Origin: Candidatus Saccharimonadota bacterium
GTDB lineage: Bacteria; Patescibacteriota; Saccharimonadia; Saccharimonadales; JACOTW01
Direction: 5' to 3'
Assembly: GCA_016178135.1 (NCBI GenBank)
Contig: JACOTW010000003.1
Location: forward strand, 472 to 64,471
DNA: 64,000 nt
In this document: positions 772-61,185 of the stretch, in pieces
Numbering within the stretch: position 1 is the first letter of the stretch
Layout of the letters: the number at the start of each line of letters is the position of its first letter
The notes under the pieces: generated by a model
What the model was told of the DNA's origin: nothing
The model's database searches: none
Seen by the model: only the letters and a program-made list of their open reading frames with translations
Position numbers and translations under genes: made by a program

Positions 772-3708
772 ATGAAACGTTATAATCCTAAAGAAATCGA
801 GCCAAAGTGGCAAAAAGTTTGGGAAGATCGAAAGATCTATCAAGCCTCTGAAGATCCAGCTAAGCCTAAACGCTATGTGTTGGAATATTTTCCGTACCCC
901 AGTGGTGCGGCCATGCACGTTGGGCATGTACGCAATTACACCATAGGTGACGTTGTGGCACGTTTTTACCGGATGCGTGGCTACAATGTTATGCATCCGA
1001 TGGGTTGGGATGCATTTGGACTGCCCGCCGAAAATTACGCCATTAAAAACAACATTAGCCCCCAGCAAGCGATAGCCGAGAACACTACCAGGTTTAAGCA
1101 ACAGCTTATGCGGATGGGTTTTAGCTATGATTGGTCGCGCGAAATCAATAGCTCTGACCCCAGTTATTATAAGTGGACGCAGTGGTTTTTCAAGCTGTTG
1201 TTCGATCGCGGGCTGGCGTACCAAAAAGAATCTCCCCAGTGGTGGTGCGAAACGGACAAAACGGTATTGGCAAACGAGCAGGTAGAATCCGGCAAGTGCT
1301 GGCGTTGCGGCAATGAAGTGACCAAAAAATCTCTCAAACAATGGTTTTTCAAGATTACAGATTACGCCGATAGATTAGTAGAAGATTTGGAAGATTTGGA
1401 TTGGTCAGATGCGATCAAATCCATGCAACACAATTGGGTTGGACGGAGCAAGGGTGCCGAGATCACTTTTGCAGTAGAAACTAGCAAGCAGAAAACAGCA
1501 AAGGAAGAAAAAATCATCGTCTTTACGACTCGGGCCGATACTTTGTTTGGGGCAACCTTCATGGTACTAGCCCCCGAGCACCCATTGGTGATGAAAATTG
1601 CGAAAGATTCGCAAAAATCAGAGGTGGAAAAGTACGTTAAACAGGCCCAGGTAAAGAGCGACATTGAACGGCAAGACACTGACCGCGAGAAAACAGGTGT
1701 ATTTACCGGTGCTTATGCAATTAACCCCGCCAACAACGAGAAGATTCCAATCTGGATAGCAGACTATGTATTGTACGGTTACGGTACAGGGGCCATCATG
1801 GCTGTGCCGGCTCATGATGAACGTGACTTTGAGTTCGCCGTGAAGTTTGATCTTCCGATCCGACAGGTATTTATGGAGTCGGGAGATGACCCGGTCAATC
1901 CACCGCAAGAAAAATTCAAGATGATCAAACGCAAAACAGTTGTTGTCCACCTGAGAGATCGTTCATCCGGCAAGTATGCGTTGCTTAATTGGCACGGGAC
2001 ATTAGAGGGTATCACAACGGCGATAATGGGAGGTATTGATGAGGGCGAGACGGCAGAAAATGCCGCGCTGAGGGAGATATCAGAAGAAGCAGGGATACAT
2101 AATGCCAAGATTGTAAAAACTGCCAGATGGATAAGCGCAGCCACCTACTGTGCATCGCACAAACAAGTAAATAGAAAATCAATTTCTACGGCTGTCTTAG
2201 CAGAAGTCGATAACTTGTCAAAACAGACCGAGGTAGCTGATTATGAAAAAAAGACCCATACCCTCATCTGGGTTACAGGTGATGCCGTAGAAGAATCGCT
2301 AATACCGATTAACCAAAAGCAAATCTGGAGTTATTTACAAAACGAGACCGCACTAACAGGTGAAGGTGAAGTCATTAACTCAGGAGAGTATGATGGTCTA
2401 TTGACATCAGATATGCGGGAAAAGATCGTGGCTGATTTGGCCAAGAAAAAAGTCGGCAAGGAAGTCGTCAATTACAAAATGCGCGATTGGCTCATTAGTC
2501 GGCAACGGTATTGGGGGGCACCAATTCCTATCATTCATTGCCCTAAAGATGGTGCCGTGGCGGTGCCAGACGATCAGTTACCGGTGGAACTGCCAGAGGT
2601 CAAGAGCTATCAGCCGACTGGCGAGGGGGCTAGCGTGCTGGCTGGCGTGGAGGAATGGGTCAATACAACTTGTCCTAAATGTGGCGAACCAGCCAAAAGA
2701 GAAACAGACACCATGGACGGTTTTGCTTGCTCCAGCTGGTATTTCCTGCGTTTTGCCGATCCGCATAATGATGTAGAGCCATTTAGCCCCCAAAAAGCCA
2801 AGTTTTGGTTGCCGGTAGATGATTACATCGGTGGAGCCGAACACGCCGTGATGCATTTGCTGTATGCTCGTATGTGGACCAAGGTTATGTATGATGCTGG
2901 ACTTGTAGAATTCAAAGAACCGTTTACGGCACTCCGCAACCAAGGTATGATTTTAGCTCCTGATGGTCAAAAGATGAGCAAGTCCAAGGGTAATACTATT
3001 GAGCCAGATGAGTTATTAGATCAAGGTTATGGTGCGGATTCGGTGCGTCTCATGGAACTTTTTATAGGCCCATGGGATCAATCAGCAGCCTGGAGCGTTA
3101 AAGGTTTGGGCGGTACGTATCGTTTTTTGAATCGTGTGTGGACTATCTGTCAAGAGCATATGACAGAAGTTACTAAGCTAGAAACTGAAGATCAAACTCA
3201 AAAAGTAGAAAATCAGGATATTAGCAAAGAATTGCGACGGGCTGTTCATCAGGCAATTAAGCGGGTTAGTGTAGACTTGCACGATATGGGCTTCAATACG
3301 TCTATAGCTACGCTTATGGAATTGACTAACGAGCTATATAAACTTAAAAGAAGCTATCCGGTAGGTTCGGCTGAATGGCACGATGCTTTAAGTATTTTGT
3401 TGCAATTGTTGGCACCGTTCGCACCCCACATTACCGAGGAATTATGGCAACAGTTAGGTGGACAAACATCGATACATACCAGCTCGTGGCCATTATGGGA
3501 CGATGCCCTGTTGGTGAATAACATCATGAAAATTATTGTGCAGATCAATGGTAAGTTACGGGCTGAAATCCATATTGCCACTGGTGCAAGTGAGATACAA
3601 GTTCTAGATACCGCTAAGGCTAACGAACGAGTAGCAAGCTATCTTCAGGATCACAAAATCAAGAAATCTATATATGTACCAAATAGACTAGTGAATTTTG
3701 TAGTCTAG
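772..3708 (+). CDS. leuS: Leucyl-tRNA synthetase, 978 aa, carrying an extra Nudix-fold insertion
   Basis: N-terminal HMGH class-I motif region (PYPSGAAMHVGHVRNYTIGDV), KMSKS (QKMSKSKGN), overall LeuRS architecture. Confidence 0.95.
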   Translation: MKRYNPKEIEPKWQKVWEDRKIYQASEDPAKPKRYVLEYFPYPSGAAMHVGHVRNYTIGDVVARFYRMRGYNVMHPMGWDAFGLPAENYAIKNNISPQQAIAENTTRFKQQLMRMGFSYDWSREINSSDPSYYKWTQWFFKLLFDRGLAYQKESPQWWCETDKTVLANEQVESGKCWRCGNEVTKKSLKQWFFKITDYADRLVEDLEDLDWSDAIKSMQHNWVGRSKGAEITFAVETSKQKTAKEEKIIVFTTRADTLFGATFMVLAPEHPLVMKIAKDSQKSEVEKYVKQAQVKSDIERQDTDREKTGVFTGAYAINPANNEKIPIWIADYVLYGYGTGAIMAVPAHDERDFEFAVKFDLPIRQVFMESGDDPVNPPQEKFKMIKRKTVVVHLRDRSSGKYALLNWHGTLEGITTAIMGGIDEGETAENAALREISEEAGIHNAKIVKTARWISAATYCASHKQVNRKSISTAVLAEVDNLSKQTEVADYEKKTHTLIWVTGDAVEESLIPINQKQIWSYLQNETALTGEGEVINSGEYDGLLTSDMREKIVADLAKKKVGKEVVNYKMRDWLISRQRYWGAPIPIIHCPKDGAVAVPDDQLPVELPEVKSYQPTGEGASVLAGVEEWVNTTCPKCGEPAKRETDTMDGFACSSWYFLRFADPHNDVEPFSPQKAKFWLPVDDYIGGAEHAVMHLLYARMWTKVMYDAGLVEFKEPFTALRNQGMILAPDGQKMSKSKGNTIEPDELLDQGYGADSVRLMELFIGPWDQSAAWSVKGLGGTYRFLNRVWTICQEHMTEVTKLETEDQTQKVENQDISKELRRAVHQAIKRVSVDLHDMGFNTSIATLMELTNELYKLKRSYPVGSAEWHDALSILLQLLAPFAPHITEELWQQLGGQTSIHTSSWPLWDDALLVNNIMKIIVQINGKLRAEIHIATGASEIQVLDTAKANERVASYLQDHKIKKSIYVPNRLVNFVV
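1867..2400 (+). other. Nudix hydrolase domain inserted in-frame inside leuS (after the CP1/editing region AHDERDFEFAVKFDLPIRQV)
   Basis: Perfect Nudix box GGIDEGETAENAALREISEEAGI (GX5EX7REUXEEXGU); segment ~130 aa longer than the equivalent E. coli LeuRS linker. Confidence 0.7.
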
Positions 3709-4735: not shown

Positions 4736-5233
4736 ATGAAACGACCAAAGCCAATCCAAGGTTTTAAAAAATTTGTTACTGACCGTAAACCAGTAATTAA
4801 CGAGGTAGTTCGTGAACCAACCGCCGGTGGAGTGATTTTTAGACATAATGATAAAAATGAAATCGAAATTCTACTTATTCAAGATGCCAGAAATCGCTGG
4901 ACCATTCCAAAAGGTCATATTGAAGAAGGCGAATCAGCGAAGCAGACTGCTGAAAGGGAAATTCGCGAAGAGACAGGCTTGGAGGAAGTGAAGATTTTGA
5001 GCTGGCTTGGTAAAATTAATTTTCGCTACCGTCGTCAACAAAGCCTGGTGCTTATGACAACCGAAATTTTTCTAGTAAAGGCTCTTAACAGGACCGATAA
5101 AATAAAGCCTGAAGATTGGATGAACGATATTAAATGGTTCACGGCAACCGAGGCGCTTGATAAAATTGAATATGATGATATAGGCAAGTTGATGTTGTTA
5201 GGACTAAAAAAGATTAGACAGGACAAGTTTTAA
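4736..5233 (+). CDS. Nudix hydrolase (MutT family)
   Basis: Nudix box GHIEEGESAKQTAEREIREETGL. Confidence 0.85.
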   Translation: MKRPKPIQGFKKFVTDRKPVINEVVREPTAGGVIFRHNDKNEIEILLIQDARNRWTIPKGHIEEGESAKQTAEREIREETGLEEVKILSWLGKINFRYRRQQSLVLMTTEIFLVKALNRTDKIKPEDWMNDIKWFTATEALDKIEYDDIGKLMLLGLKKIRQDKF

Positions 5234-5991: not shown

Positions 5992-6206
5992 GGCAAAAAT
6001 GCCGCAGCTGCCGTCAGTTCTTGATGACTTCACAGTCAAAGCGCACAATGCTCGGAGAACTCACCATTTCTTTTATTACTTTAAGATGAGAAATAGCTTA
6101 ACAACTCCTCGCATCTAATTGTGCTTTTGACATTCAGGCTTCAGGAACTTACGGATGCTGGGGGAGGCCATGGAATGCGCTCCTGCTGAGCGCGCATTAG
6201 TAATTA

Positions 6207-6365
6207 ACTCGACTTACGCAAAACTCCTCCATCCCCAGATCGAATTCTATCGGCTGCAAACAGTTTTTCTGTCCTCGATGTAGCCACAGCTACCTCTCCG
6301 CCAGATAAAACTGTTTTCGCTCGAGATAATTCACTCTGAGAACGGACGATTTTGCGTAAGTCGAG
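6207..6365. repeat. MITE-like palindromic repeat (orientation B, 'ctcgac/gatcgaattctatcggctgcaaacag' subfamily)
   Basis: actcgacttacgcaaaactcctccatccccagatcgaa...gatgtagccacagctacctc...ctgagaacggacgattttgcgtaagtcgagt. Confidence 0.9.
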
Positions 6366-6372
6366 TTAATAC

Positions 6373-7218: not shown

Positions 7219-7231
7219 ATGAGCTTAGTAT

Positions 7232-7391
7232 ACTGGACCTGTCGCAAAATCGCCCGTTCCCAGGCTAAATCAGCTCGAGCTGGGAGTAGTTTGACCGAAG
7301 GAGAGGTAGCCATAGCTACATCGAGAGAAGACAGACCACTATCAGTCGATACCAGTTGGTCTGGGGATGGGGGAGCTTTGCATAAGTCCAG
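7232..7391. repeat. MITE-like palindromic repeat (orientation A), abutting the start of the 6373-7218 gene
   Basis: actggacctgtcgcaaaatcgcccgttcccaggc...ctgaaggagaggtagccatagctacatcgagagaag...ctggggatgggggagctttgcataagtccag. Confidence 0.9.
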
Positions 7392-7504: not shown

Positions 7505-7942
7505 ATGTTAGTCATTCGTATGCAGCGTACTGGCCGTAAGGGTTACGCTCAATTCCGCGTTGTAGTCCAAGACTCGCGCCGGACCCCTACTAGTGGGCGG
7601 GTTGTAGCTTTGCTCGGAAGTCTTAATCCGCACACTAAACAGGCAATTATCAATAAAGAAAAAGCCGTTTTTTATATGGAACATGGTGCTCAGCCTTCAG
7701 ATAGAGTTGTTCAGCTTTTTCAGGCAGAGGGCATAAAATTGCCCGAATGGGTTAAGGCTGCAACTATCAAAAAACGTGAAATTCGTAACTCTGAAAAATT
7801 ACGCAAAAATCGTCCAGCCGAACCGGAAAAAGAGACCTCTAGTGATCAGTCAGCTAATAAATCGGAAGAAGTTAAATCAGACGCTGTTGAGATTGAAGCC
7901 GAAGATCAATCTACCGATACACCAGCTTCCAAACCCGAATAG
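7505..7942 (+). CDS. rpsP: 30S ribosomal protein S16 with acidic/Lys-rich C-terminal extension
   Basis: MLVIRMQRTGRKGYAQFRVVVQDSRRTPTSGRVVALLGSLNP matches S16 N-terminus. Confidence 0.9.
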   Translation: MLVIRMQRTGRKGYAQFRVVVQDSRRTPTSGRVVALLGSLNPHTKQAIINKEKAVFYMEHGAQPSDRVVQLFQAEGIKLPEWVKAATIKKREIRNSEKLRKNRPAEPEKETSSDQSANKSEEVKSDAVEIEAEDQSTDTPASKPE

Positions 7943-7997: not shown

Positions 7998-8024
7998 ATG
8001 TAATGGTTGTGGTATGAAGTCTTA

Positions 8025-8065
8025 CTGGACCTGTCGCAAAACTCCCTCGTTCCCAGAGTGATTTT
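8025..8065. repeat. Solo terminal fragment of the MITE family
   Basis: tactggacctgtcgcaaaactccctcgttcccagag then breaks off. Confidence 0.6.
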
Positions 8066-8069
8066 ATAT

Positions 8070-8404
8070 TGACTGGACCTGTCGCAAAGCTCCCCCATCC
8101 CCAGACCAACTAATCTCGGCTGGTAGCGGTCTGTCTTCTCTCGATGTAGCAAAGAGCTAATTAACATCTATCTATCGGCTAAAATCTTCAGGTCTGCCAC
8201 TTTTATTCTGTTTTTTGTTTTCGGTTCGTACCGATAGGTACGACCAAAAGCCAAGAAAACAGAATAAAAATCATGCCAGCTGCTAAAGATTCGCTATCAA
8301 CGGATAGATGTTAATTAGCTCTAAGGCTACCTCTCCTTCAGGCAAACCATTCCCAAATCGAGCTGATTTAGCCTGGGAACGGGCGATTTTGCGACAGGTC
8401 CAGT
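8070..8404. repeat. MITE-like repeat (orientation B) interrupted by a nested ~170-bp palindromic insertion in its central loop
   Basis: Left part 8070-8150 and right part 8321-8404 together reconstitute a canonical copy (…gatgtagc | … | aaggctacctctccttcag…). Confidence 0.85.
8151..8320. repeat. Nested palindromic element with perfect 18-bp terminal inverted repeats (agctaattaacatctatc / gatagatgttaattagct) and imperfect long internal hairpin
   Basis: Terminal IRs exact; internal ttttattctgtttt...aaaacagaataaaa arms. Confidence 0.75.
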
Positions 8405-8447
8405 TGAGGCCAATAAATTAAAGAGACAATTTTGCATTATAACGTAC

Positions 8448-8479
8448 TTGACCAAAACCCTCGGGGGGGGGGGTAAACT
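8448..8479 (+). promoter_or_regulatory. Putative promoter with 11-G homopolymeric tract (8463-8473) between -35-like TTGACC and -10-like TAAACT: candidate slipped-strand phase-variation switch
   Basis: ttgacc aaaaccctc G11 t aaactc; spacer 20 nt as written, would be optimal (17) with G8; ~45 nt upstream of ATG 8519. Confidence 0.4.
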
Positions 8480-8518
8480 CACATATAAAGGATAAGCATA
8501 AAAAGGAATACATAGCTC

Positions 8519-10135
8519 ATGGCACGACTTCCCACTCCTGGTTCAGATAATGGTACATGGGGAGACATCCTTAATGGCTACCTCAGATCCTCCCATAATG
8601 AAGATGGTACTCTCAAGTCTGGGGTAGTTGGCGTAGGCCAACTACAAGACAACTCAGTTACCATCGCGAAACTAGACACCAGTACCAAAGCCTCACTAAT
8701 AAAGGCCGACAATGCCCTAAGTACCACAACAGCTGACGCGGATTACCTTAAGAAAATGGATGCTAGTACGACCTATGTTCCGCGGAACATCGACGGTGAG
8801 CTTGAGCTGATTTTGACCGGCAAGAACCGCACGACGTCAGCGGGTGACGAGGCGGTGCTACGCGGCAGTGATGTCGCCTCTGCGGTGCTGGACCTGTCGT
8901 CCAAGACCGGCACGGACGAAGCTCTCGGTTCGGCCTATGAGGCGGTTTCGTTCACCGTCCCTGCCGGTATCACTACGTTTGGTAGCGTGCGGCTGCGGAT
9001 CAAAAAGACCGGCACTATCGCCGACACTGGGACCTACGTGCAGGCAGCACTACACGCGGACAACGCTGGCAAGCCCGGCGCTGCGGTCGGTCTGAACAAC
9101 GCCGTGCAGCGGATCTATGGCGGACAGATCGAGACGACTTACACCGACTGCGAGTTCCTGCTAAGACTGACTGTTGCGACTCCCGGTACCCGTATGTGGG
9201 TTGTGTTGACCGTGGTGGTCAGTGGCGGCGGCACCCTCAGCATGGACAGCACTGTCGGAGTGGCATCGAGTGGCAATCTCGCCGAGAGTGCCGACGCGGT
9301 GACATGGACAAACAAAGACGTAGACGCCTACGTGCAGGTGTACGGGCAGAACGTTGCCGGAATCCAAGGTAACTCGACCAACTATGTAGCAATTCGTGGC
9401 GACTCAACCAACTACTTCGGCGGCTACTTCACTAGCAAACGCGGGACCGGCGTTTACGGCTTCTCGAACAACCACCGGGGTGTCGAGGGCAGTAGCGACC
9501 ATGGCCCGGCTGGGTATTTCGATAGCCGTGGCGGCTACGGTGTCGAGGCGGTTAGCACCAATAGCATCGCCGTCTACGGCAAGGCCGCTGGCGGCGGCGT
9601 GAAGGGTGAGAGTCCGTCGGCCTTCCCGGCGGTTCTGGGTGACAACATACTGAGCGGTCCGGGCGTGCAGGGCAAGACCGTCACGGGCATTGCCGGGCTG
9701 TTCGAGCAGTCGGGGTCTACGACCGCCGCCGTGTTGGTGTCAAAGCTCGGCACGGGCGCGACTGGCAACATGTGGGAGGGTCGCAACAGTGGCAGCACCC
9801 GTCGCGTGTCGTTCGACGTGAACGGGAATCTAAGCTTCGTTAGCAACGGCACGATCACCGCCGAGACTGGCTATCTACTACTCCAATGCTCGCAGACAAC
9901 TCAGGACATCTACTTCGGAGCAACGGGCGACACCGGCACGGTGCAGGCTCGCCGGTCAATAACGATGAGCGACGCGAAGAACCTTATTCTCGGCACTGGG
10001 ACCGGCACGAAAATCGGCACTGCGACGACGCAGAAGCTCGGCTTCTACAACGCGACGCCCATCGTGCAGCAGCCTAGGCCGACGGATGCGGCCAGTATCA
10101 TCACGCTTCTAACTACGCTCGGATTGTGCGCGTGA
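8519..10135 (+). CDS. Glycine-rich beta-repeat surface / phage-tail-fibre-like protein; chimeric base composition (low-GC 5' ~280 nt, GC-rich remainder)
   Basis: Repeated G-x-Y-G / YGxSxxxxGVEG units, no TM helices; abrupt rise in G+C from ~8800 through 10260 visible by eye. Confidence 0.45.
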   Translation: MARLPTPGSDNGTWGDILNGYLRSSHNEDGTLKSGVVGVGQLQDNSVTIAKLDTSTKASLIKADNALSTTTADADYLKKMDASTTYVPRNIDGELELILTGKNRTTSAGDEAVLRGSDVASAVLDLSSKTGTDEALGSAYEAVSFTVPAGITTFGSVRLRIKKTGTIADTGTYVQAALHADNAGKPGAAVGLNNAVQRIYGGQIETTYTDCEFLLRLTVATPGTRMWVVLTVVVSGGGTLSMDSTVGVASSGNLAESADAVTWTNKDVDAYVQVYGQNVAGIQGNSTNYVAIRGDSTNYFGGYFTSKRGTGVYGFSNNHRGVEGSSDHGPAGYFDSRGGYGVEAVSTNSIAVYGKAAGGGVKGESPSAFPAVLGDNILSGPGVQGKTVTGIAGLFEQSGSTTAAVLVSKLGTGATGNMWEGRNSGSTRRVSFDVNGNLSFVSNGTITAETGYLLLQCSQTTQDIYFGATGDTGTVQARRSITMSDAKNLILGTGTGTKIGTATTQKLGFYNATPIVQQPRPTDAASIITLLTTLGLCA

Positions 10136-10372
10136 ACACCGCTGCCCTCCTAGCGCTGATCGCCGAGCTGTACGACCGACTCATGGCATCAGAGGCTCGC
10201 GTCCGCGAGCTGGAAGAAAAACTCGTCGTTCGCTCCCAGGATGCCGACCAAACTAGCAACTAGTCGGCACCTATCCTCACTGTACGTTGCCGGAAAATTC
10301 CCACTAACAATGCGACAAAGCTGACACAAAAGTAGCGACACCCGTATACTTTCGTTTAGGTTACTAAACTAA

Positions 10373-10699
10373 ATGAAAGGAGTGTCGCTAATGCGTACAC
10401 TAACACAGTACGAAGTAGCTTGGAATATGCACCAGGCTGGCTCAACTATTGAGCAAATAACTAAGGTGGTAAGCAAGCACCGGGCCACTGTTTACCGTTG
10501 GTTAAAACAAATCAATCTGGCCGGCATCCGTAAGTTCCTTCGTCGTAAAGAAACCTGCAAGATCCGACGACCCAAAGCCCAAACTCCCGAGACAACCATC
10601 CAGAAGATCGTTGACATCCGTAATGAGTTCGGTTGGTGCGGAGCCAAGATACGCAAAGAACTAAAAGAAAACCACGGCATTAGTCTCGCCCTAAATTAA
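10373..10699 (+). mobile_element. Truncated IS481/IS3-type transposase N-terminal (HTH) fragment; IS remnant
   Basis: HRATVYRWLKQ...RRPKAQTPETTIQKIVDIRNEFGWCGAKIRKELKENHGISL resembles the HTH + 'RRPxxSPxxTP...I..LR....G...I...L' leader of IS481-family transposases; catalytic DDE part absent. Confidence 0.5.
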
Positions 10700-10888
10700 A
10701 AGGGTCTCACCCTTAACATCACCCTTAACAGGGAAGAATTTTGGTGATTAGTGCCAAATCAGTTAGAAGACAGTCTTCTACAGGAGTCTTTTAGTGTCAT
10801 ATATCAGCTAACTGATACTTTATTGTTTCTGTCTAGGAAACATTATTCATGAGCTAACGAATACTATTTGGGAAAGATTTTATATGAG

Positions 10889-10921
10889 CTAAGTCGTGTT
10901 GCTGTGAAAAAGTGCGAAAGT
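10889..10921 (+). promoter_or_regulatory. Recurring AAAAGTGCGAAAGTCCTATATAAT promoter-like box upstream of KH-protein gene
   Basis: Identical core to boxes at 705-733, 36399-36433, 45548-45583. Confidence 0.5.
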
Positions 10922-10966: not shown

Positions 10967-11374
10967 ATGAATAGTACCATAGACCAACAGTTCATAGAAT
11001 TTATTGTTAAATCACTTGTCAACAAGCCAGATGCTGTAAGTGTTGAGCGTCGTATTGACGAGAAGGGTGTATTGCTTGAACTTACCGTTGATCCTGAAGA
11101 CCTTGGCCGAGTAATCGGAAAGCGCGGGGCGACTGCTCAAAGTCTGCGAACTCTGCTCCGAGCTCTTGGCACCAAGAATGACGCACGTTACAACCTAAAA
11201 ATTGTTGATAATGGTGAACAACCCGTAGCAACATTACCATCTGATCAAGGTACGCCATCCCCCGTGAGCAATAATGATGAAGACGTGGATGTTGCTGAAG
11301 ATGATACAGATCAAAACAGTGTTGTAAGTAAAACCCGAAAAGAACTTGATGATCTGGACGACTTAGATATATAA
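10967..11374 (+). CDS. KH-domain RNA-binding protein (YlqC/UPF0109-like) of the rpsP-trmD operon, with acidic C-terminal tail
   Basis: VERRIDEKGVLLELTVDPEDLGRVIGKRGATAQSLRTLL KH-fold GxxG motif; conserved position between rpsP and trmD. Confidence 0.75.
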   Translation: MNSTIDQQFIEFIVKSLVNKPDAVSVERRIDEKGVLLELTVDPEDLGRVIGKRGATAQSLRTLLRALGTKNDARYNLKIVDNGEQPVATLPSDQGTPSPVSNNDEDVDVAEDDTDQNSVVSKTRKELDDLDDLDI

Positions 11375-11375
11375 T

Positions 11376-11520
11376 AGGACTTACGCACTTTTTCACACCA
11401 CCCCAGACCAATCCTACAGGGCTGTAAACTGTTTATCTACTGTCAGTGTAGCTATGGTTGCCACTCCAGAAGCTCAACAGTTTTCGCTCCAAGTAGGATT
11501 ACTCTGGAATTGGCGACAAA
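11376..11520. repeat. Degenerate MITE copy (variant subfamily, cf. 573-700) ending in a diverged promoter-box-like terminus
   Basis: taggacttacgcactttttcacaccaccccagaccaa...gtgtagctatggttgccactcc...cagttttcgctccaag...ctggaattggcgacaaagt. Confidence 0.6.
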
Positions 11521-11623
11521 GTACAAATAGTTACTACATTATCAGCCGCAACCTTCGGTTAAAAAACAAAAATAGTATGGGCTCATGCGAGCGATTCGTA
11601 AGAATCGGAGCCTTATGTGACAC

Positions 11624-11668: not shown

Positions 11669-12313
11669 ATGAAGATTCAGATCATCTCTTTGTTTCCAGA
11701 GATATTTAAACCAATTTTGAGTACTAGTATGCTTCGGAAAGCTCAGCAAAAGGGTCTAGTTGAGTTTTCTTATATTGATTTGCGGGATTACGGGATCGGA
11801 CCACGAAAAACCGTTGATGATACGCCTTACGGTGGTGGCGATGGCATGTTACTAATGATAGAACCCCTTGTCGGTGCGATTGAGGCGGCTAGGGTCAACG
11901 ACCCTGACGCTATGGTCATCTTACCTACTCCACGTGGCAAATTGTATAAGCAGTCTGATGCCAAGCGACTTGCTGCTAATGAAAAAGGCTTAATACTGGT
12001 TTGTCCCCGTTACGAAGGCTACGACGAGCGAGTTACTAATTGGGTTGACCAGCAATATTGCATAGGCAATTACATTCTAACTGGTGGTGAATTGCCGGCC
12101 ATGATAATCATTGATAGCGTGGTTCGTTTAATTCCTGGTGTACTGGGGGGAGAGTTTTCGGCTGAAGTTGAGTCTTTCCAGCAAGACGATAAAAGTATTG
12201 AATTTCCACAGTACACCCGCCCAGAGGATTTCAAGGGCATGAAGGTACCGAAAATCTTACTAAGCGGAAATCATACAAATATTCAGCAATGGCGGGACAA
12301 GCACGGAGTTTAA
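11669..12313 (+). CDS. trmD: tRNA (guanine37-N1)-methyltransferase
   Basis: MKIQIISLFPEIF..., GYDERV, SPOUT-fold TrmD motifs. Confidence 0.9.
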   Translation: MKIQIISLFPEIFKPILSTSMLRKAQQKGLVEFSYIDLRDYGIGPRKTVDDTPYGGGDGMLLMIEPLVGAIEAARVNDPDAMVILPTPRGKLYKQSDAKRLAANEKGLILVCPRYEGYDERVTNWVDQQYCIGNYILTGGELPAMIIIDSVVRLIPGVLGGEFSAEVESFQQDDKSIEFPQYTRPEDFKGMKVPKILLSGNHTNIQQWRDKHGV

Positions 12314-12941: not shown

Positions 12942-12950
12942 TGATACTGT

Positions 12951-13111
12951 ACTGGACCTGTCGCAAAATCGCCCGTTCCCAGGGCAAATCAGCTCTAGTT
13001 TATAGTGGTTTGACTGAAGGAGAGGTAGCTTTAGCTACATCGAGAGAAGACAGACCGCTACCAGCCGAGATTAATTGGTCTGGGGATGGGGGAGCTTTGG
13101 GTAAGTCCAGT
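12951..13111. repeat. MITE-like palindromic repeat (orientation A)
   Basis: actggacctgtcgcaaaatcgcccgttcccagggcaaatcagctc...gtagctttagctac...ctggggatgggggagctttgggtaagtccagt. Confidence 0.9.
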
Positions 13112-13858: not shown

Positions 13859-14015
13859 CGACTTACCCAAAGCTCCCCCATCCCCAGACCAACTAATCTC
13901 AAGCGGTAGCGGTCTGCCTTCTCTCGATGTAGCTATGGCTACCTCTCCTTCAGTCAAACCACTATCAGCTCGAGCTGATTTGCCTTGGGAGCGGATGATT
14001 TTGTGTTAGTCCAGT
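13859..14015. repeat. MITE-like palindromic repeat (orientation B; inverted relative to 12951-13111)
   Basis: cgacttacccaaagctcccccatccccagaccaactaatctc...gatgtagctatggctacctc...ccttgggagcggatgattttgtgttagtccagt. Confidence 0.9.
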
Positions 14016-28413: not shown

Positions 28414-28624
28414 TCATTCGACCTAAAAACTCCTCCATACCTAGACCGAATCCCATCGGTTATACCGGACTGACGAAAAACTCCCCCATCCCCAGACCAA
28501 CTAATCTCGGCTGATAGCGGTCTGTCTTCTCTCGATGTAGCTAAGGCTACCTCTCCTTCAGTCAAACCACTCCCAACTCGAGCTGATTTGCCCTGGGAAC
28601 GGGCGATTTTGCGACAGGTCCAGT
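28414..28624. repeat. Partial MITE fragment (28414-28469) followed by full MITE-like copy (orientation B, 28470-28624)
   Basis: …aaaaactcccccatccccagaccaactaatctcggctgatagcggtctg…gatgtagctaaggctacctc…cctgggaacgggcgattttgcgacaggtccagt. Confidence 0.9.
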
Positions 28625-28686
28625 ATAAACAATTTATCTTACATGGAAACTATTATTCCCCATTGTCGAAGATTTTAACAGATTAG

Positions 28687-60942: not shown

Positions 60943-61102
60943 TGGACCTGTCGCAAAACTCCTCCATCCCCAGATCGAATTATATCGGCTGCAAACAGTT
61001 TTTCTTCTCTCAATGTAGCTACGGCTACCTCTCCGCCAGATAAAACTGTTTTCGCTCGAGATAATTCACTCTGGGAACGGACGATTTTGCGACAGGTCCA
61101 GT
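60943..61102. repeat. MITE-like palindromic repeat (orientation B)
   Basis: ctggacctgtcgcaaaactcctccatccccagatcgaattatatcggctgcaaacag…caatgtagctacggctacctc…ctgggaacggacgattttgcgacaggtccagt. Confidence 0.9.
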
Positions 61103-61185
61103 AGACATATCAGATCGAATTATATATCGGGTATACTTACGGAATTTCGGAAGTCCTGTACAGCTCTGTTATACTAGGAGAACGT

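What the first reader, a model, noticed from the sequence alone, without database searches (positions are those of the whole stretch)
8519..10262. Chimeric gene: low-GC 5' module fused to a strongly GC-rich (>60% by eye) glycine-repeat C-terminal module, with in-frame continuation beyond the TGA
The first ~280 nt match the local base composition. From ~8800 on, the sequence turns abruptly GC-rich (ccgcacgacgtcagcgggtgacgaggcggtgctacgcggcag…) and stays so through 10262. This resembles tail-fibre/receptor-binding proteins, where a conserved N-terminal anchor is recombined with foreign distal domains. The high GC points to a high-GC donor (e.g. an actinobacterial host or its phage). After the TGA at 10133-10135 the same frame stays open for 42 more codons (NTAALLALIAELYDRLMASEARVRELEEKLVVRSQDADQTSN*), a coiled-coil-like tail of identical composition. 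This may be a decayed C-terminus, a separate chaperone-like ORF (ATG at 10183), or read-through.
Basis: partly seen in the sequence, partly recalled or inferred. Interest (0 to 1): 0.7.

Follow-up and report, generated by a model that had tools for sequence, protein, structure and literature searches.

The report
Mosaic phage-type fibre gene in Saccharibacteria
A tiny parasitic bacterium (Candidatus Saccharibacteria) carries, between two housekeeping genes, a phage-tail-fibre-like gene whose front end is native while its sugar-binding-like distal part and a small partner gene were imported from a high-GC phage, possibly to recognise host cells.

Summary
The composition step is real. GC rises from about 45% to 60-66% at nt 8774-8780 and falls back near 10270. 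This is the only such island in 64 kb (GC3 0.74 against a background of 0.40 +/- 0.05).

The gene (8519-10135, 538 aa) is a genuine mosaic of a phage receptor-binding-fibre type:
- **5' part:** a native 5' cassette and N-terminal anchor, shared at 92% nt identity with a paralogue in the same genome.
- **Distal part:** a GC-rich cassette whose relatives lie in phage tail modules on 66-69% GC contigs.

The "in-frame continuation" is wrong. The quoted peptide lies in the +2 frame. It is a separate 43-aa ORF whose GTG (10132) overlaps the TGA (10133), and the closest high-GC relative shows the same arrangement. The TGA is the family's natural C-terminus.

The cassette is inserted between rpsP and khpA, which are adjacent in 73 of 80 related loci. 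It assembles independently from other sequencing runs and shows dN/dS of about 0.05 between strains.

The origin as a mosaic built by horizontal transfer is well supported. A role in binding the (actinobacterial?) host is inferred, not shown.

The parts
8447..8584 (+). Shared native 5' cassette: 72 nt of upstream sequence (including a Shine-Dalgarno-like AAGGA) plus the first 22 codons
   Evidence: 92% nt identity over 138 nt with the paralogue HY003_03715 on another contig of the same MAG (L007 7931-8066). Composition is native.
8463..8473 (+). Poly-G tract (11 G), 46-56 nt upstream of the ATG, inside the shared cassette
   Evidence: Read directly from the sequence. The paralogue has 9 G at the same place. 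Possible slipped-strand switch; untested.
8519..10135 (+). Mosaic fibre-like gene, 538 aa (NCBI HY003_01905, hypothetical protein)
   Evidence: No Pfam, NCBIfam or PDB sequence match.
8519..8773 (+). N-terminal anchor module of native composition (residues 1-85; motif MARLPTPGSDNGTWGDILN..H..DGTLK)
   Evidence: GC3 0.424. The motif heads many Saccharibacteria proteins with different distal domains. It also heads a tail spike in phage contig L094 and a collagen-like protein of Streptomyces phage BRock.
8774..9960 (+). Foreign GC-rich central module: linker, CBM-like beta-sandwich (residues ~120-280), Gly-rich 10-11-residue repeats (~281-400) and a distal region
   Evidence: 74% aa identity (residues 77-518) and 73.8% nt identity (8774-10036) to P0002 on the 69% GC contig L001. 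Family members P0033, P0034 and P0038. AF2 pLDDT about 90 for residues 120-280. Fold matches to phage tail/baseplate proteins and CBMs.
9961..10135 (+). C-terminal module (GTGTKIGTATTQKLGFYNATPIVQ...ASIITLLTTLGLCA), GC-rich, closer to different relatives than the central module
   Evidence: 75-76% aa identity to the C-termini of P0132 and P0153, which end at the same residue. 77-79% nt identity to L005 and L003. The unit is repeated in tandem in P0032 and P0035. Six of the eight differences between strains fall here.
10132..10263 (+). Small 43-aa ORF (VNTAALLALIAELYDRLMASEARVRELEEKLVVRSQDADQTSN); its GTG overlaps the fibre gene's TGA (GTGA), in the +2 frame
   Evidence: Codon-position GC is 0.73/0.36/0.71. 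The same junction and a homologous start follow P0002 in L001. L003 (43 aa) and L005 (71 aa) have analogous ORFs overlapping the stop. It was called as a gene in independent assemblies.
10286..10897 (+). 612-nt strain-specific insertion carrying an IS630-like ORF with the HTH domain only (10373-10699, 108 aa)
   Evidence: Absent from strain contigs L011 and L012, where 15 nt replace it. Pfam HTH_Tnp_IS630 and HTH_29 match, with no DDE domain.
8024..8404 (.). Composite copy of a MITE-like intergenic repeat family, directly upstream of the 5' cassette
   Evidence: Repeat families D2-D4 and inverted pairs I4-I8, I13 and I17.
7505..7942 (+). rpsP, the left housekeeping flank of the insertion
   Evidence: Pfam Ribosomal_S16. 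In 73 of 80 related loci the matched part of rpsP ends 104-783 nt upstream of khpA.
10967..11374 (+). khpA (KH domain), the right housekeeping flank, followed by trmD (11669-12313)
   Evidence: Pfam KH_KhpA-B and tRNA_m1G_MT.

Best explanation
This is a real mosaic gene of the phage receptor-binding-fibre type, sitting as an orphan in the chromosome of a ~43% GC Candidatus Saccharibacteria bacterium.

**Anatomy**
- A resident 5' cassette (upstream region, ribosome-binding site and N-terminal anchor motif) is shared with at least one paralogue in the same genome.
- At a conserved TYVPR/K linker (nt ~8774-8780) it is joined to a distal cassette acquired from a high-GC tailed phage or prophage.
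- That cassette has four parts: a CBM-like beta-sandwich domain, Gly-rich beta-repeats, a C-terminal fibre module, and a translationally coupled 43-aa helical protein (GTGA overlap).

**History**
- The unit was inserted between rpsP and khpA.
- An IS630-like fragment sits next to it in one strain but not in another.

**Inferred mechanism**
- The protein would form a fibre or spike whose N-terminus docks on a carrier structure and whose distal part binds a cell-envelope glycan.
- The small ORF would be made by termination-reinitiation and would act on or with the fibre (assembly helper or partner).
- Because cultivated Saccharibacteria live attached to Actinobacteria, the most likely use is recognition of, or attachment to, a high-GC host surface.

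**Shown:** the mosaic structure, the foreign origin, the phage-tail affiliation of all modules, the insertion, and purifying selection.
**Inferred:** the direction and route of transfer, trimeric fibre assembly, glycan binding, the role of the small ORF, and use in host attachment (about 0.4 on its own).
For: **Composition and junction**
- GC and GC3 step at 8774-8780, unique in 64 kb.
- Nucleotide homology to the 69% GC contig L001 starts exactly there.
- P0002 is 74% identical over residues 77-518.

**Relatives lie in phage tail modules**
- P0002 follows a virion structural protein (phrog_37549, E 1e-26; Bacillus phage PBC1-like).
- P0034 lies four genes downstream of a tape-measure protein in the 66% GC contig L004. 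That tape-measure protein's tblastn matches are mostly to actinophages.
- P0132 follows a tail-fibre PHROG protein.

**N-terminal motif**
- It heads a tail spike in a bona fide phage contig (L094: portal, protease, major head, adaptor).
- It also occurs in Streptomyces phage BRock.
- The same anchor is attached to many different distal domains: pectate-lyase-like, alpha-1,3-glucanase, DUF5907 and PTR.

**Fold**
- Residues 120-280 have pLDDT about 90.
- Foldseek gives E 4e-9 to a viral protein and weak matches to the Douge central fibre and CBM6.

**Small ORF**
- The GTGA junction and N-terminus are conserved in L001.

**C-terminus**
- It is identical in position to P0153 and P0132.

**Native 5' cassette**
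- 92% nt identity with the paralogue.

**Insertion**
- In 73 of 80 related loci rpsP lies just upstream of khpA (104-783 nt), and none of the 80 has a fibre homologue within +/-5 kb.

**Not an artefact**
- Logan contig L002 covers 8482-10358 with 0 mismatches.
- L011 and L012, from other runs, carry gene + 43-aa ORF + khpA + trmD.

**Selection**
- Eight strain differences, of which seven are synonymous. dN/dS is about 0.05, and P(<=1 non-synonymous | neutral) = 4.6e-4.
Against: - No signal peptide or transmembrane segment is visible at the N-terminus, so there is no evident export route for a surface adhesin.
- No carrier structure for the anchor was identified, and there are no other phage genes nearby.
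- The donor contigs are unnamed metagenome fragments. An actinobacterial phage origin rests on GC content and weak tape-measure similarity.
- Some Saccharibacteria reach 56-57% GC (L006, L013), so an intermediate donor is possible.
- The gene's GC3 (0.74) is lower than that of its relatives (0.90). This fits either amelioration or a less GC-rich donor.
- Outside residues 120-280 the structure model is poor.
- The small ORF has no detectable homologue beyond L001, and it is not alignable with the L003 small ORF.
- The selection signal could have been imported by recombination rather than arising in this genome.
Confidence: 0.8

Rival explanations
1. Inert leftover. The gene is a remnant of a phage or mobile element (perhaps brought by the neighbouring IS630-like element or by a Saccharibacteria phage with a mosaic fibre). 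It has no role in the cell and has simply not decayed yet.
For: - An IS630-like fragment and MITE-like repeats lie next to it.
- It has no signal peptide and no partner genes.
- All modules are phage-type.
- The strains are only about 0.5% diverged, so there has been little time for decay.
Against: - The 538-aa ORF and the 43-aa ORF are intact in two strains.
- Seven of eight differences are synonymous (P = 4.6e-4 under neutrality).
- The 5' cassette is conserved between two paralogues.
- Intact orphan genes with this anchor recur in housekeeping contexts in several Saccharibacteria genomes, sometimes in tandem.
Confidence: 0.2
2. The donor is not a phage of Actinobacteria. The distal cassette would come from another high-GC lineage, from a higher-GC Saccharibacterium, or from a phage that interacts with both partners. 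The link to host recognition would then be coincidental.
For: - Donor contigs carry no taxonomic label.
- Saccharibacteria of 56-57% GC exist.
- The protein upstream of P0002 in L001 best matches Bacillus phage proteins.
- Liu et al. [quoted passage not shown]
Against: - The relatives sit at 66-69% GC with GC3 0.90, well above any Saccharibacteria locus sampled here (0.38-0.57 across 80 loci).
- Most phage records matched by the L004 tape-measure protein infect Actinobacteria.
- The N-terminal motif is present in a Streptomyces phage.
Confidence: 0.3
3. Assembly or binning chimera. A high-GC fragment from another organism was wrongly joined into the Saccharibacteria contig.
For: - The source is a metagenome-assembled genome.
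- The step is abrupt.
- Short-read contigs break near the gene.
Against: - Three independent Logan assemblies from different runs span both junctions. One continues 2 kb into khpA-trmD at 99.95% identity.
- The junction lies inside a continuous ORF, at a conserved linker motif.
- The contig breaks coincide with the repeated 5' cassette and the poly-G tract.
Confidence: 0.03
4. Native gene whose high GC simply reflects a Gly/Ala-rich protein or local selection, with no transfer involved.
For: Gly, Ala, Val and Thr are frequent in residues 86-538.
Against: - The step is strongest at synonymous third positions (0.74 against 0.40).
- Low-GC organisms encode the same domain family with Ser/Thr/Asn-rich sequences.
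- The locus is absent from 80 related genomes.
- There is nucleotide-level homology to a 69% GC contig.
Confidence: 0.02
5. Read-through, programmed frameshift or a decayed C-terminus that extends the fibre protein by the downstream peptide.
For: The downstream ORF overlaps the stop codon, has the same composition, and lies in the -1 frame.
Against: - It is not in frame: a TAG follows at 10151.
- There is no X XXY YYZ heptamer in the 10078-10135 overlap.
- Relatives end at the same ...LGLCA residue.
- The GTG-over-TGA arrangement is conserved in L001, and other relatives have overlapping start codons.
Confidence: 0.03

Closest known systems
Modular phage receptor-binding proteins (tail fibres and tailspikes with a conserved N-terminal anchor and exchangeable distal domains), for example actinophage minor tail proteins or tail spikes such as Bxb1 gp29 and the Douge central fibre
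   Same: - The N-terminal motif is shared with a phage tail spike (L094) and with a BRock fibre-like protein.
- The distal domain family is encoded in phage tail modules.
- The CBM-like beta-sandwich resembles domains of Bxb1 gp29, Douge gp20 and phi812 baseplate proteins.
- Mosaic junctions fall at module boundaries.
   Different: - It is encoded alone in a bacterial chromosome between rpsP and khpA, with no other virion genes.
- The host genome is a CPR epibiont of ~43% GC, while the distal part matches 66-69% GC phages.
- There is no sequence-level membership in any Pfam or PHROG tail-fibre family.
Small tail-fibre assembly helpers encoded just downstream of fibre genes (lambda Tfa, T4 gp38, T4 gp57A; from my own knowledge)
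   Same: The 43-aa ORF lies immediately downstream and overlaps the stop codon. Its position is conserved in the closest relative. It looks helical and coiled-coil-like.
   Different: - It is much shorter than Tfa or gp38.
- It has no sequence similarity to any chaperone family.
- The ORFs at the same position in L003 and L005 are not alignable with it.
- Activity is unknown.
Carbohydrate-binding modules of the beta-jelly-roll type (CBM6/35-like; Bacteroides BT0996-C CBM)
   Different: Sequence identity is 7-16%. There is no Pfam hit, and ligand-binding residues were not examined.
Glycan-binding adhesins required for epibiotic growth of Saccharibacteria (Wang et al., Cell 2023, PMC10633639)
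   Same: A predicted glycan-binding surface-recognition role in the same phylum. That study found multiple adhesins essential for growth on Actinobacteria.
   Different: In the passages read, those adhesins carry other domains (for example dockerin and fibronectin III). No phage-fibre-type protein is mentioned there. No orthology was tested here.

Membership tests
Phage tail fibre / tailspike receptor-binding proteins | N-terminal anchor shared with proteins of bona fide phages | tested here: met
   The motif heads a 538-aa tail spike (phrog_2234/7458) in phage contig L094, which also has portal, protease, major head and adaptor genes. There is a 64.7% match over residues 1-34 in Streptomyces phage BRock.
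Phage tail fibre / tailspike receptor-binding proteins | Distal domain homologous to proteins encoded in phage tail gene clusters | tested here: met
   P0034 lies downstream of a PF10145 tape-measure protein. P0002 follows a virion structural protein. P0132 follows a tail-fibre PHROG protein.
Phage tail fibre / tailspike receptor-binding proteins | Encoded within a phage or prophage structural module | tested here: not met
   The flanks are rpsP and khpA-trmD, with leuS, nusB and rnc nearby. No fibre homologue was found in 80 related loci. It is an orphan gene.
Phage tail fibre / tailspike receptor-binding proteins | Homotrimeric fibre or spike that binds a host receptor | not testable with these tools
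   Only a monomer AF2 model was possible, and it is confident only for residues 120-280.
Collagen-like / GXY glycine-repeat proteins | Gly-X-Y triplet repeats | tested here: not met
   The Gly-rich part (residues 281-400, 22.5% Gly) has degenerate units of 10-11 residues (GVxGxSxNxx). There are no GXY runs.
Tail-fibre assembly chaperones (small ORF) | Gene immediately downstream of, and coupled to, the fibre gene | tested here: met
   GTG 10132 overlaps TGA 10133. The same arrangement is seen in L001. L003 and L005 have overlapping downstream ORFs.
Tail-fibre assembly chaperones (small ORF) | Sequence membership in a known chaperone family | tested here: not met
   Only chance-level Pfam and PHROG hits (E >= 0.03). 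No NCBIfam hit. The homology search returned only the ORF itself.
Carbohydrate-binding modules (beta-jelly roll) | CBM fold | tested here: met
Carbohydrate-binding modules (beta-jelly roll) | Sequence family membership and a sugar-binding site | tested here: inconclusive
   No Pfam hit. Binding residues were not analysed.
Programmed -1 frameshift or stop-codon read-through extension | In-frame open continuation, or a slippery heptamer within the overlap | tested here: not met
   An in-frame TAG lies at 10151. No X XXY YYZ heptamer occurs in 10078-10135.
IS630-family transposase (neighbouring ORF 10373-10699) | HTH DNA-binding domain plus DDE catalytic domain | tested here: not met
   HTH_Tnp_IS630 scores 23.8 bits (cut-off 21.3) and HTH_29 32.3 bits. 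The ORF stops at 108 aa and no DDE domain follows. It is a fragment.

The most novel reading that the evidence does not exclude
Saccharibacteria may keep a family of orphan phage-type receptor-binding genes that share one expression and anchor cassette, here with a variable poly-G tract. Into this cassette they would capture distal binding or depolymerase modules from phages of their high-GC (actinobacterial) hosts. This would amount to 'receptor-binding-protein piracy' that sets or switches which host the epibiont can recognise. The neighbouring modules would recombine between strains and paralogues.
Probability: 0.2. Interest if true: 0.85.

Novelty: new variant of a known kind. Interest (0 to 1): 0.55.

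Why it matters
How ultra-small CPR/Patescibacteria epibionts recognise their hosts is largely unknown. Type IV pili and a few adhesins have been implicated in cultivated strains (PMC10633639).

A chromosomal orphan gene under selection, combining a lineage-typical anchor with a binding module taken from high-GC phages, gives a concrete and testable candidate for a host-range determinant. It also suggests that epibionts and phages of the same host may draw on one pool of receptor-binding modules. My searches of the held literature found no paper linking Saccharibacteria with tail fibres or tailspikes.

If instead it is only a phage leftover, it remains a clean example of recent cross-GC transfer into a streamlined genome, inserted in a conserved ribosomal-protein cluster.

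Tried and rejected
- **Family and structure searches on the whole protein.** Pfam, PHROGs, NCBIfam and PDB-sequence searches gave nothing usable.
- **Single-sequence AF2.** It failed, with pLDDT 32.
- **Locus scans for the central module.** Scans of genome, viral and metagenome collections found no relative.
- **tblastn of the protein against isolated phages.** Only the N-terminal 34 residues matched.
- **Search with the C-terminal 69 aa.** It returned only short stand-alone proteins of 58-121 aa carrying this module, not the long relatives.
- **Search with the 43-aa ORF.** It found only itself. BLASTP against the 43-aa ORF of L003 gave no alignment.
- **Promoter and terminator scan.** Uninformative: counts were at shuffle level and no promoter was found upstream of the gene.
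- **Rfam and tRNA scans.** Nothing near the locus.
- **L004 tail protein (754 aa) against phages.** No match.
- **Rejected explanations.** Assembly chimera, GC driven by amino-acid composition, read-through or frameshift, and collagen-like repeats (reasons are given under rivals and membership tests).
Full report
**Context**

The window is chromosomal DNA of a Candidatus Saccharibacteria MAG. The target protein is identical to NCBI HY003_01905, and a paralogue maps to assembly GCA_016196105.1. Overall GC is about 43%. The neighbours are housekeeping genes: leuS, nusB, a NUDIX gene, rnc, an EamA transporter and rpsP (7505-7942) upstream, then khpA (10967-11374) and trmD (11669-12313) downstream.

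**The observation**

ORF 8519-10135 encodes 538 aa. The composition step is real and sharp.
- 150-nt windows read 0.42-0.47 before 8774 and mostly 0.57-0.68 from 8775 to 10274. They read 0.43 afterwards.
- Outside the island, 300-nt windows average 0.429 (sd 0.036, maximum 0.56). The island reaches 0.663 and is unique in 64 kb.
- The step is strongest at third codon positions. GC3 is 0.424 for 8519-8773, 0.741 for 8774-10036, 0.758 for 10037-10135 and 0.705 for the downstream small ORF. For 37 other ORFs it is 0.401 +/- 0.052, maximum 0.505. Amino-acid composition therefore cannot explain it.
- The maximum-likelihood GC3 change point is codon 87, nt 8780.

The peptide NTAALL... is not an in-frame continuation.
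- In the gene's frame a TAG follows five codons after the TGA.
- The quoted peptide begins at 10135, the last base of the TGA, so it is in the +2 frame.
- It belongs to a separate ORF whose GTG (10132-10134) overlaps the TGA (10133-10135).
- No slippery heptamer lies in the 58-nt overlap of the two frames.
- "Glycine-repeat" applies only to residues ~281-400 (22.5% Gly). These are degenerate 10-11-residue units, not collagen triplets.

**Relatives of the distal part**

- The closest protein, P0002, is 74% identical over residues 77-518.
- Its 2.2-kb contig L001 is 69% GC with GC3 0.90.
- Nucleotide homology (73.8%) runs from window 8774 to 10036, so it starts at the GC step.
- A full HMMER scan of 1.8 billion representatives split the distal part into two families.
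  - The first covers residues ~100-400. It is found in high-GC proteins (P0033, P0034, P0038) and in low-GC Ser/Thr/Asn-rich proteins with clear STNxxGVxG repeats.
  - The second is a C-terminal module of ~60 residues. It occurs singly or as tandem ~65-residue units in many fibre-like proteins (P0032, P0035).
- P0153 and P0132 share 75-76% identity with the last ~60 residues. They end at the same ...LGLCA, and P0153 matches 21 of the last 22 residues. The TGA at 10133 is therefore the family's natural end.
- Their contigs are 65.7% and 67.9% GC, with 77-79% nt identity to window ~9962-10136.

**The relatives are phage tail genes**

- P0034 lies four genes after a 1337-aa tape-measure protein (PF10145) in a 66% GC, 123-kb contig.
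- That tape-measure protein matches 268 phage records. Most infect Actinobacteria: Propionibacterium/Cutibacterium, Arthrobacter, Microbacterium, Streptomyces and Curtobacterium.
- The gene upstream of P0002 is a virion structural protein (phrog_37549, E 1e-26). The gene upstream of P0132 matches a tail-fibre PHROG, and a gene next to P0034 matches a tail PHROG.

**The small ORF**

- Directly after P0002's stop, L001 reads GCGTGAACCCC..., which gives VNPAAILALISE in the overlapping frame. The window gives VNTAALLALIAE. The contig ends there.
- L003 has a 43-aa ORF and L005 a 71-aa ORF overlapping the fibre gene's stop. They are not alignable with the window's ORF.
- Codon-position GC of the window's ORF (0.73/0.36/0.71) fits coding sequence from the same donor.
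- Independent gene calls list it as a 43-aa gene.
- It is therefore a real, co-transferred and probably translationally coupled gene. Its function is unknown. No family matched.

**The N-terminal part**

- Residues 1-35 (MARLPTPGSDNGTWGDILN..H..DGTLK) head many Saccharibacteria proteins. Examples are P0003, P0004, P0017 and its tandem neighbour, and P0019.
- Proteins with this head carry very different distal domains: pectate-lyase-like beta-helix with FN3, alpha-1,3-glucanase, DUF5907 repeats and more.
- The motif also heads a tail spike in an 18-kb, 63% GC phage contig that has portal, protease, major head and adaptor genes. It also occurs in a collagen-like protein of Streptomyces phage BRock.
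- In the window this part has native composition.
- The 72 nt upstream plus the first 22 codons are 92% identical to the paralogue HY003_03715 on another contig. That paralogue is also GC-enriched in its distal part (GC 0.53-0.61 against flanks of 0.40-0.45; GC3 0.56).
- The shared cassette contains a poly-G tract of 11 G here and 9 G in the paralogue.

**Fold**

- With a 38-sequence alignment, AF2 predicts residues ~120-280 at pLDDT about 90 as a beta-sandwich. The rest of the model is poor.
- Foldseek agrees. It gives E 4e-9 to a viral protein and 77 viral hits at E <= 1e-3, and weak matches to the Douge central fibre and CBM6.

**Insertion and reality of the locus**

- In 73 of 80 related Saccharibacteria loci, the matched part of rpsP ends 104-783 nt before khpA. 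None of the 80 has a fibre homologue within +/-5 kb, and their GC is 0.38-0.57. In the window the gap is 3025 nt.
- Logan contig L002 equals window 8482-10358 with no mismatch.
- L011 and L012, from other runs, carry the 538-aa gene, the 43-aa ORF, khpA and trmD.
- These strains lack window 10286-10897, which carries an IS630-like ORF with the HTH domain only.
- The strains differ at eight sites, all between 9187 and 10061. The 2082 nt of flank show one difference (Fisher P = 0.003).
- Seven of the eight are synonymous. dN/dS is about 0.05, and P = 4.6e-4 under neutrality.
- Six of the eight fall in the C-terminal module, which suggests a separate recombination tract there.

**Interpretation**

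The gene is a mosaic of phage receptor-binding-protein modules. A resident anchor cassette is joined, at a conserved TYVPR/K linker, to a distal cassette from a high-GC tailed phage. That cassette is itself mosaic: the central part and the small ORF are L001-like, while the C-terminal module is L003/L005-like.

Natural competence of Saccharibacteria (PMC10633639) gives a plausible route for such transfer. So do phages targeted by both Saccharibacteria and Actinobacteria spacers (PMC10746230). Neither route is tested here.

I infer a fibre that binds an envelope glycan and a likely use in recognising a high-GC host. The missing export signal and the unknown docking partner are the main weaknesses of that functional reading.

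**Literature**

Full-text searches found no paper linking Saccharibacteria with tail fibres or tailspikes. Known epibiosis factors are type IV pili, a type IV secretion system and other adhesins.

Noticed in passing
window 6203-6370, 7226-7391, 8024-8404, 12945-13110, 13860-14003, partial 11437-11522; end matches at 28596-28625 and 61074-61103: A family of MITE-like, partly palindromic intergenic repeats of ~150-170 nt is scattered between housekeeping genes (73-97% identity between copies). One composite copy lies directly upstream of the fibre gene's 5' cassette.
   Followed up: partly
window 8463-8473; L007 ~7950: A poly-G tract lies in the 5' cassette shared by the two fibre paralogues, 46-56 nt upstream of the ATG. 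It has 11 G here and 9 G in the paralogue. Short-read contigs break at or just after it. This could be a slipped-strand (phase-variation) switch or simply an assembly-hostile repeat.
   Followed up: partly
L007 8001-9605 (same MAG, contig JACPYE010000013.1): A second orphan fibre/spike-like gene (HY003_03715, 534 aa) lies downstream of rpsB-tsf-mazEF. It has the same 5' cassette and a GC-enriched distal part (0.53-0.61 against flanks of 0.40-0.45). It has no Pfam hit, and its distal sequence looks like a beta-helix tailspike.
   Followed up: partly
window 10286-10897: A 612-nt presence/absence polymorphism between strains carries an IS630-like ORF with the HTH domain only (10373-10699). In strains L011 and L012, 15 nt (TTACGTCGACTGTAC) replace it. 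The bases GTTGC occur at both junctions in the window.
   Followed up: partly
window 772-3708: The leucyl-tRNA synthetase (978 aa) has a NUDIX-domain match (residues 392-506, E 1.8e-8) just after its editing domain. A separate NUDIX gene lies at 4736-5233.
   Followed up: no
proteins P0181-P0298: More than 100 stand-alone proteins of 58-121 aa consist essentially of the fibre C-terminal module (GTKIGTATTQKLGF.NATPV.Q...LGL). Some are on long contigs of up to 112 kb. Their role is unknown.
   Followed up: no
window 9961-10061 compared with L011: Six of the eight strain differences cluster in 100 nt of the C-terminal module (about 3.4% against 0.17% in the central module). This suggests a separate gene-conversion or recombination tract.
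   Followed up: partly
L013 6001-7770 and 7885-9603; L006 8001-11592: Other Saccharibacteria genomes (56-57% GC) carry tandem genes with the same N-terminal motif in housekeeping contexts. In L006 they sit beside a Kelch beta-propeller protein and a Laminin_G_3 protein.
   Followed up: no
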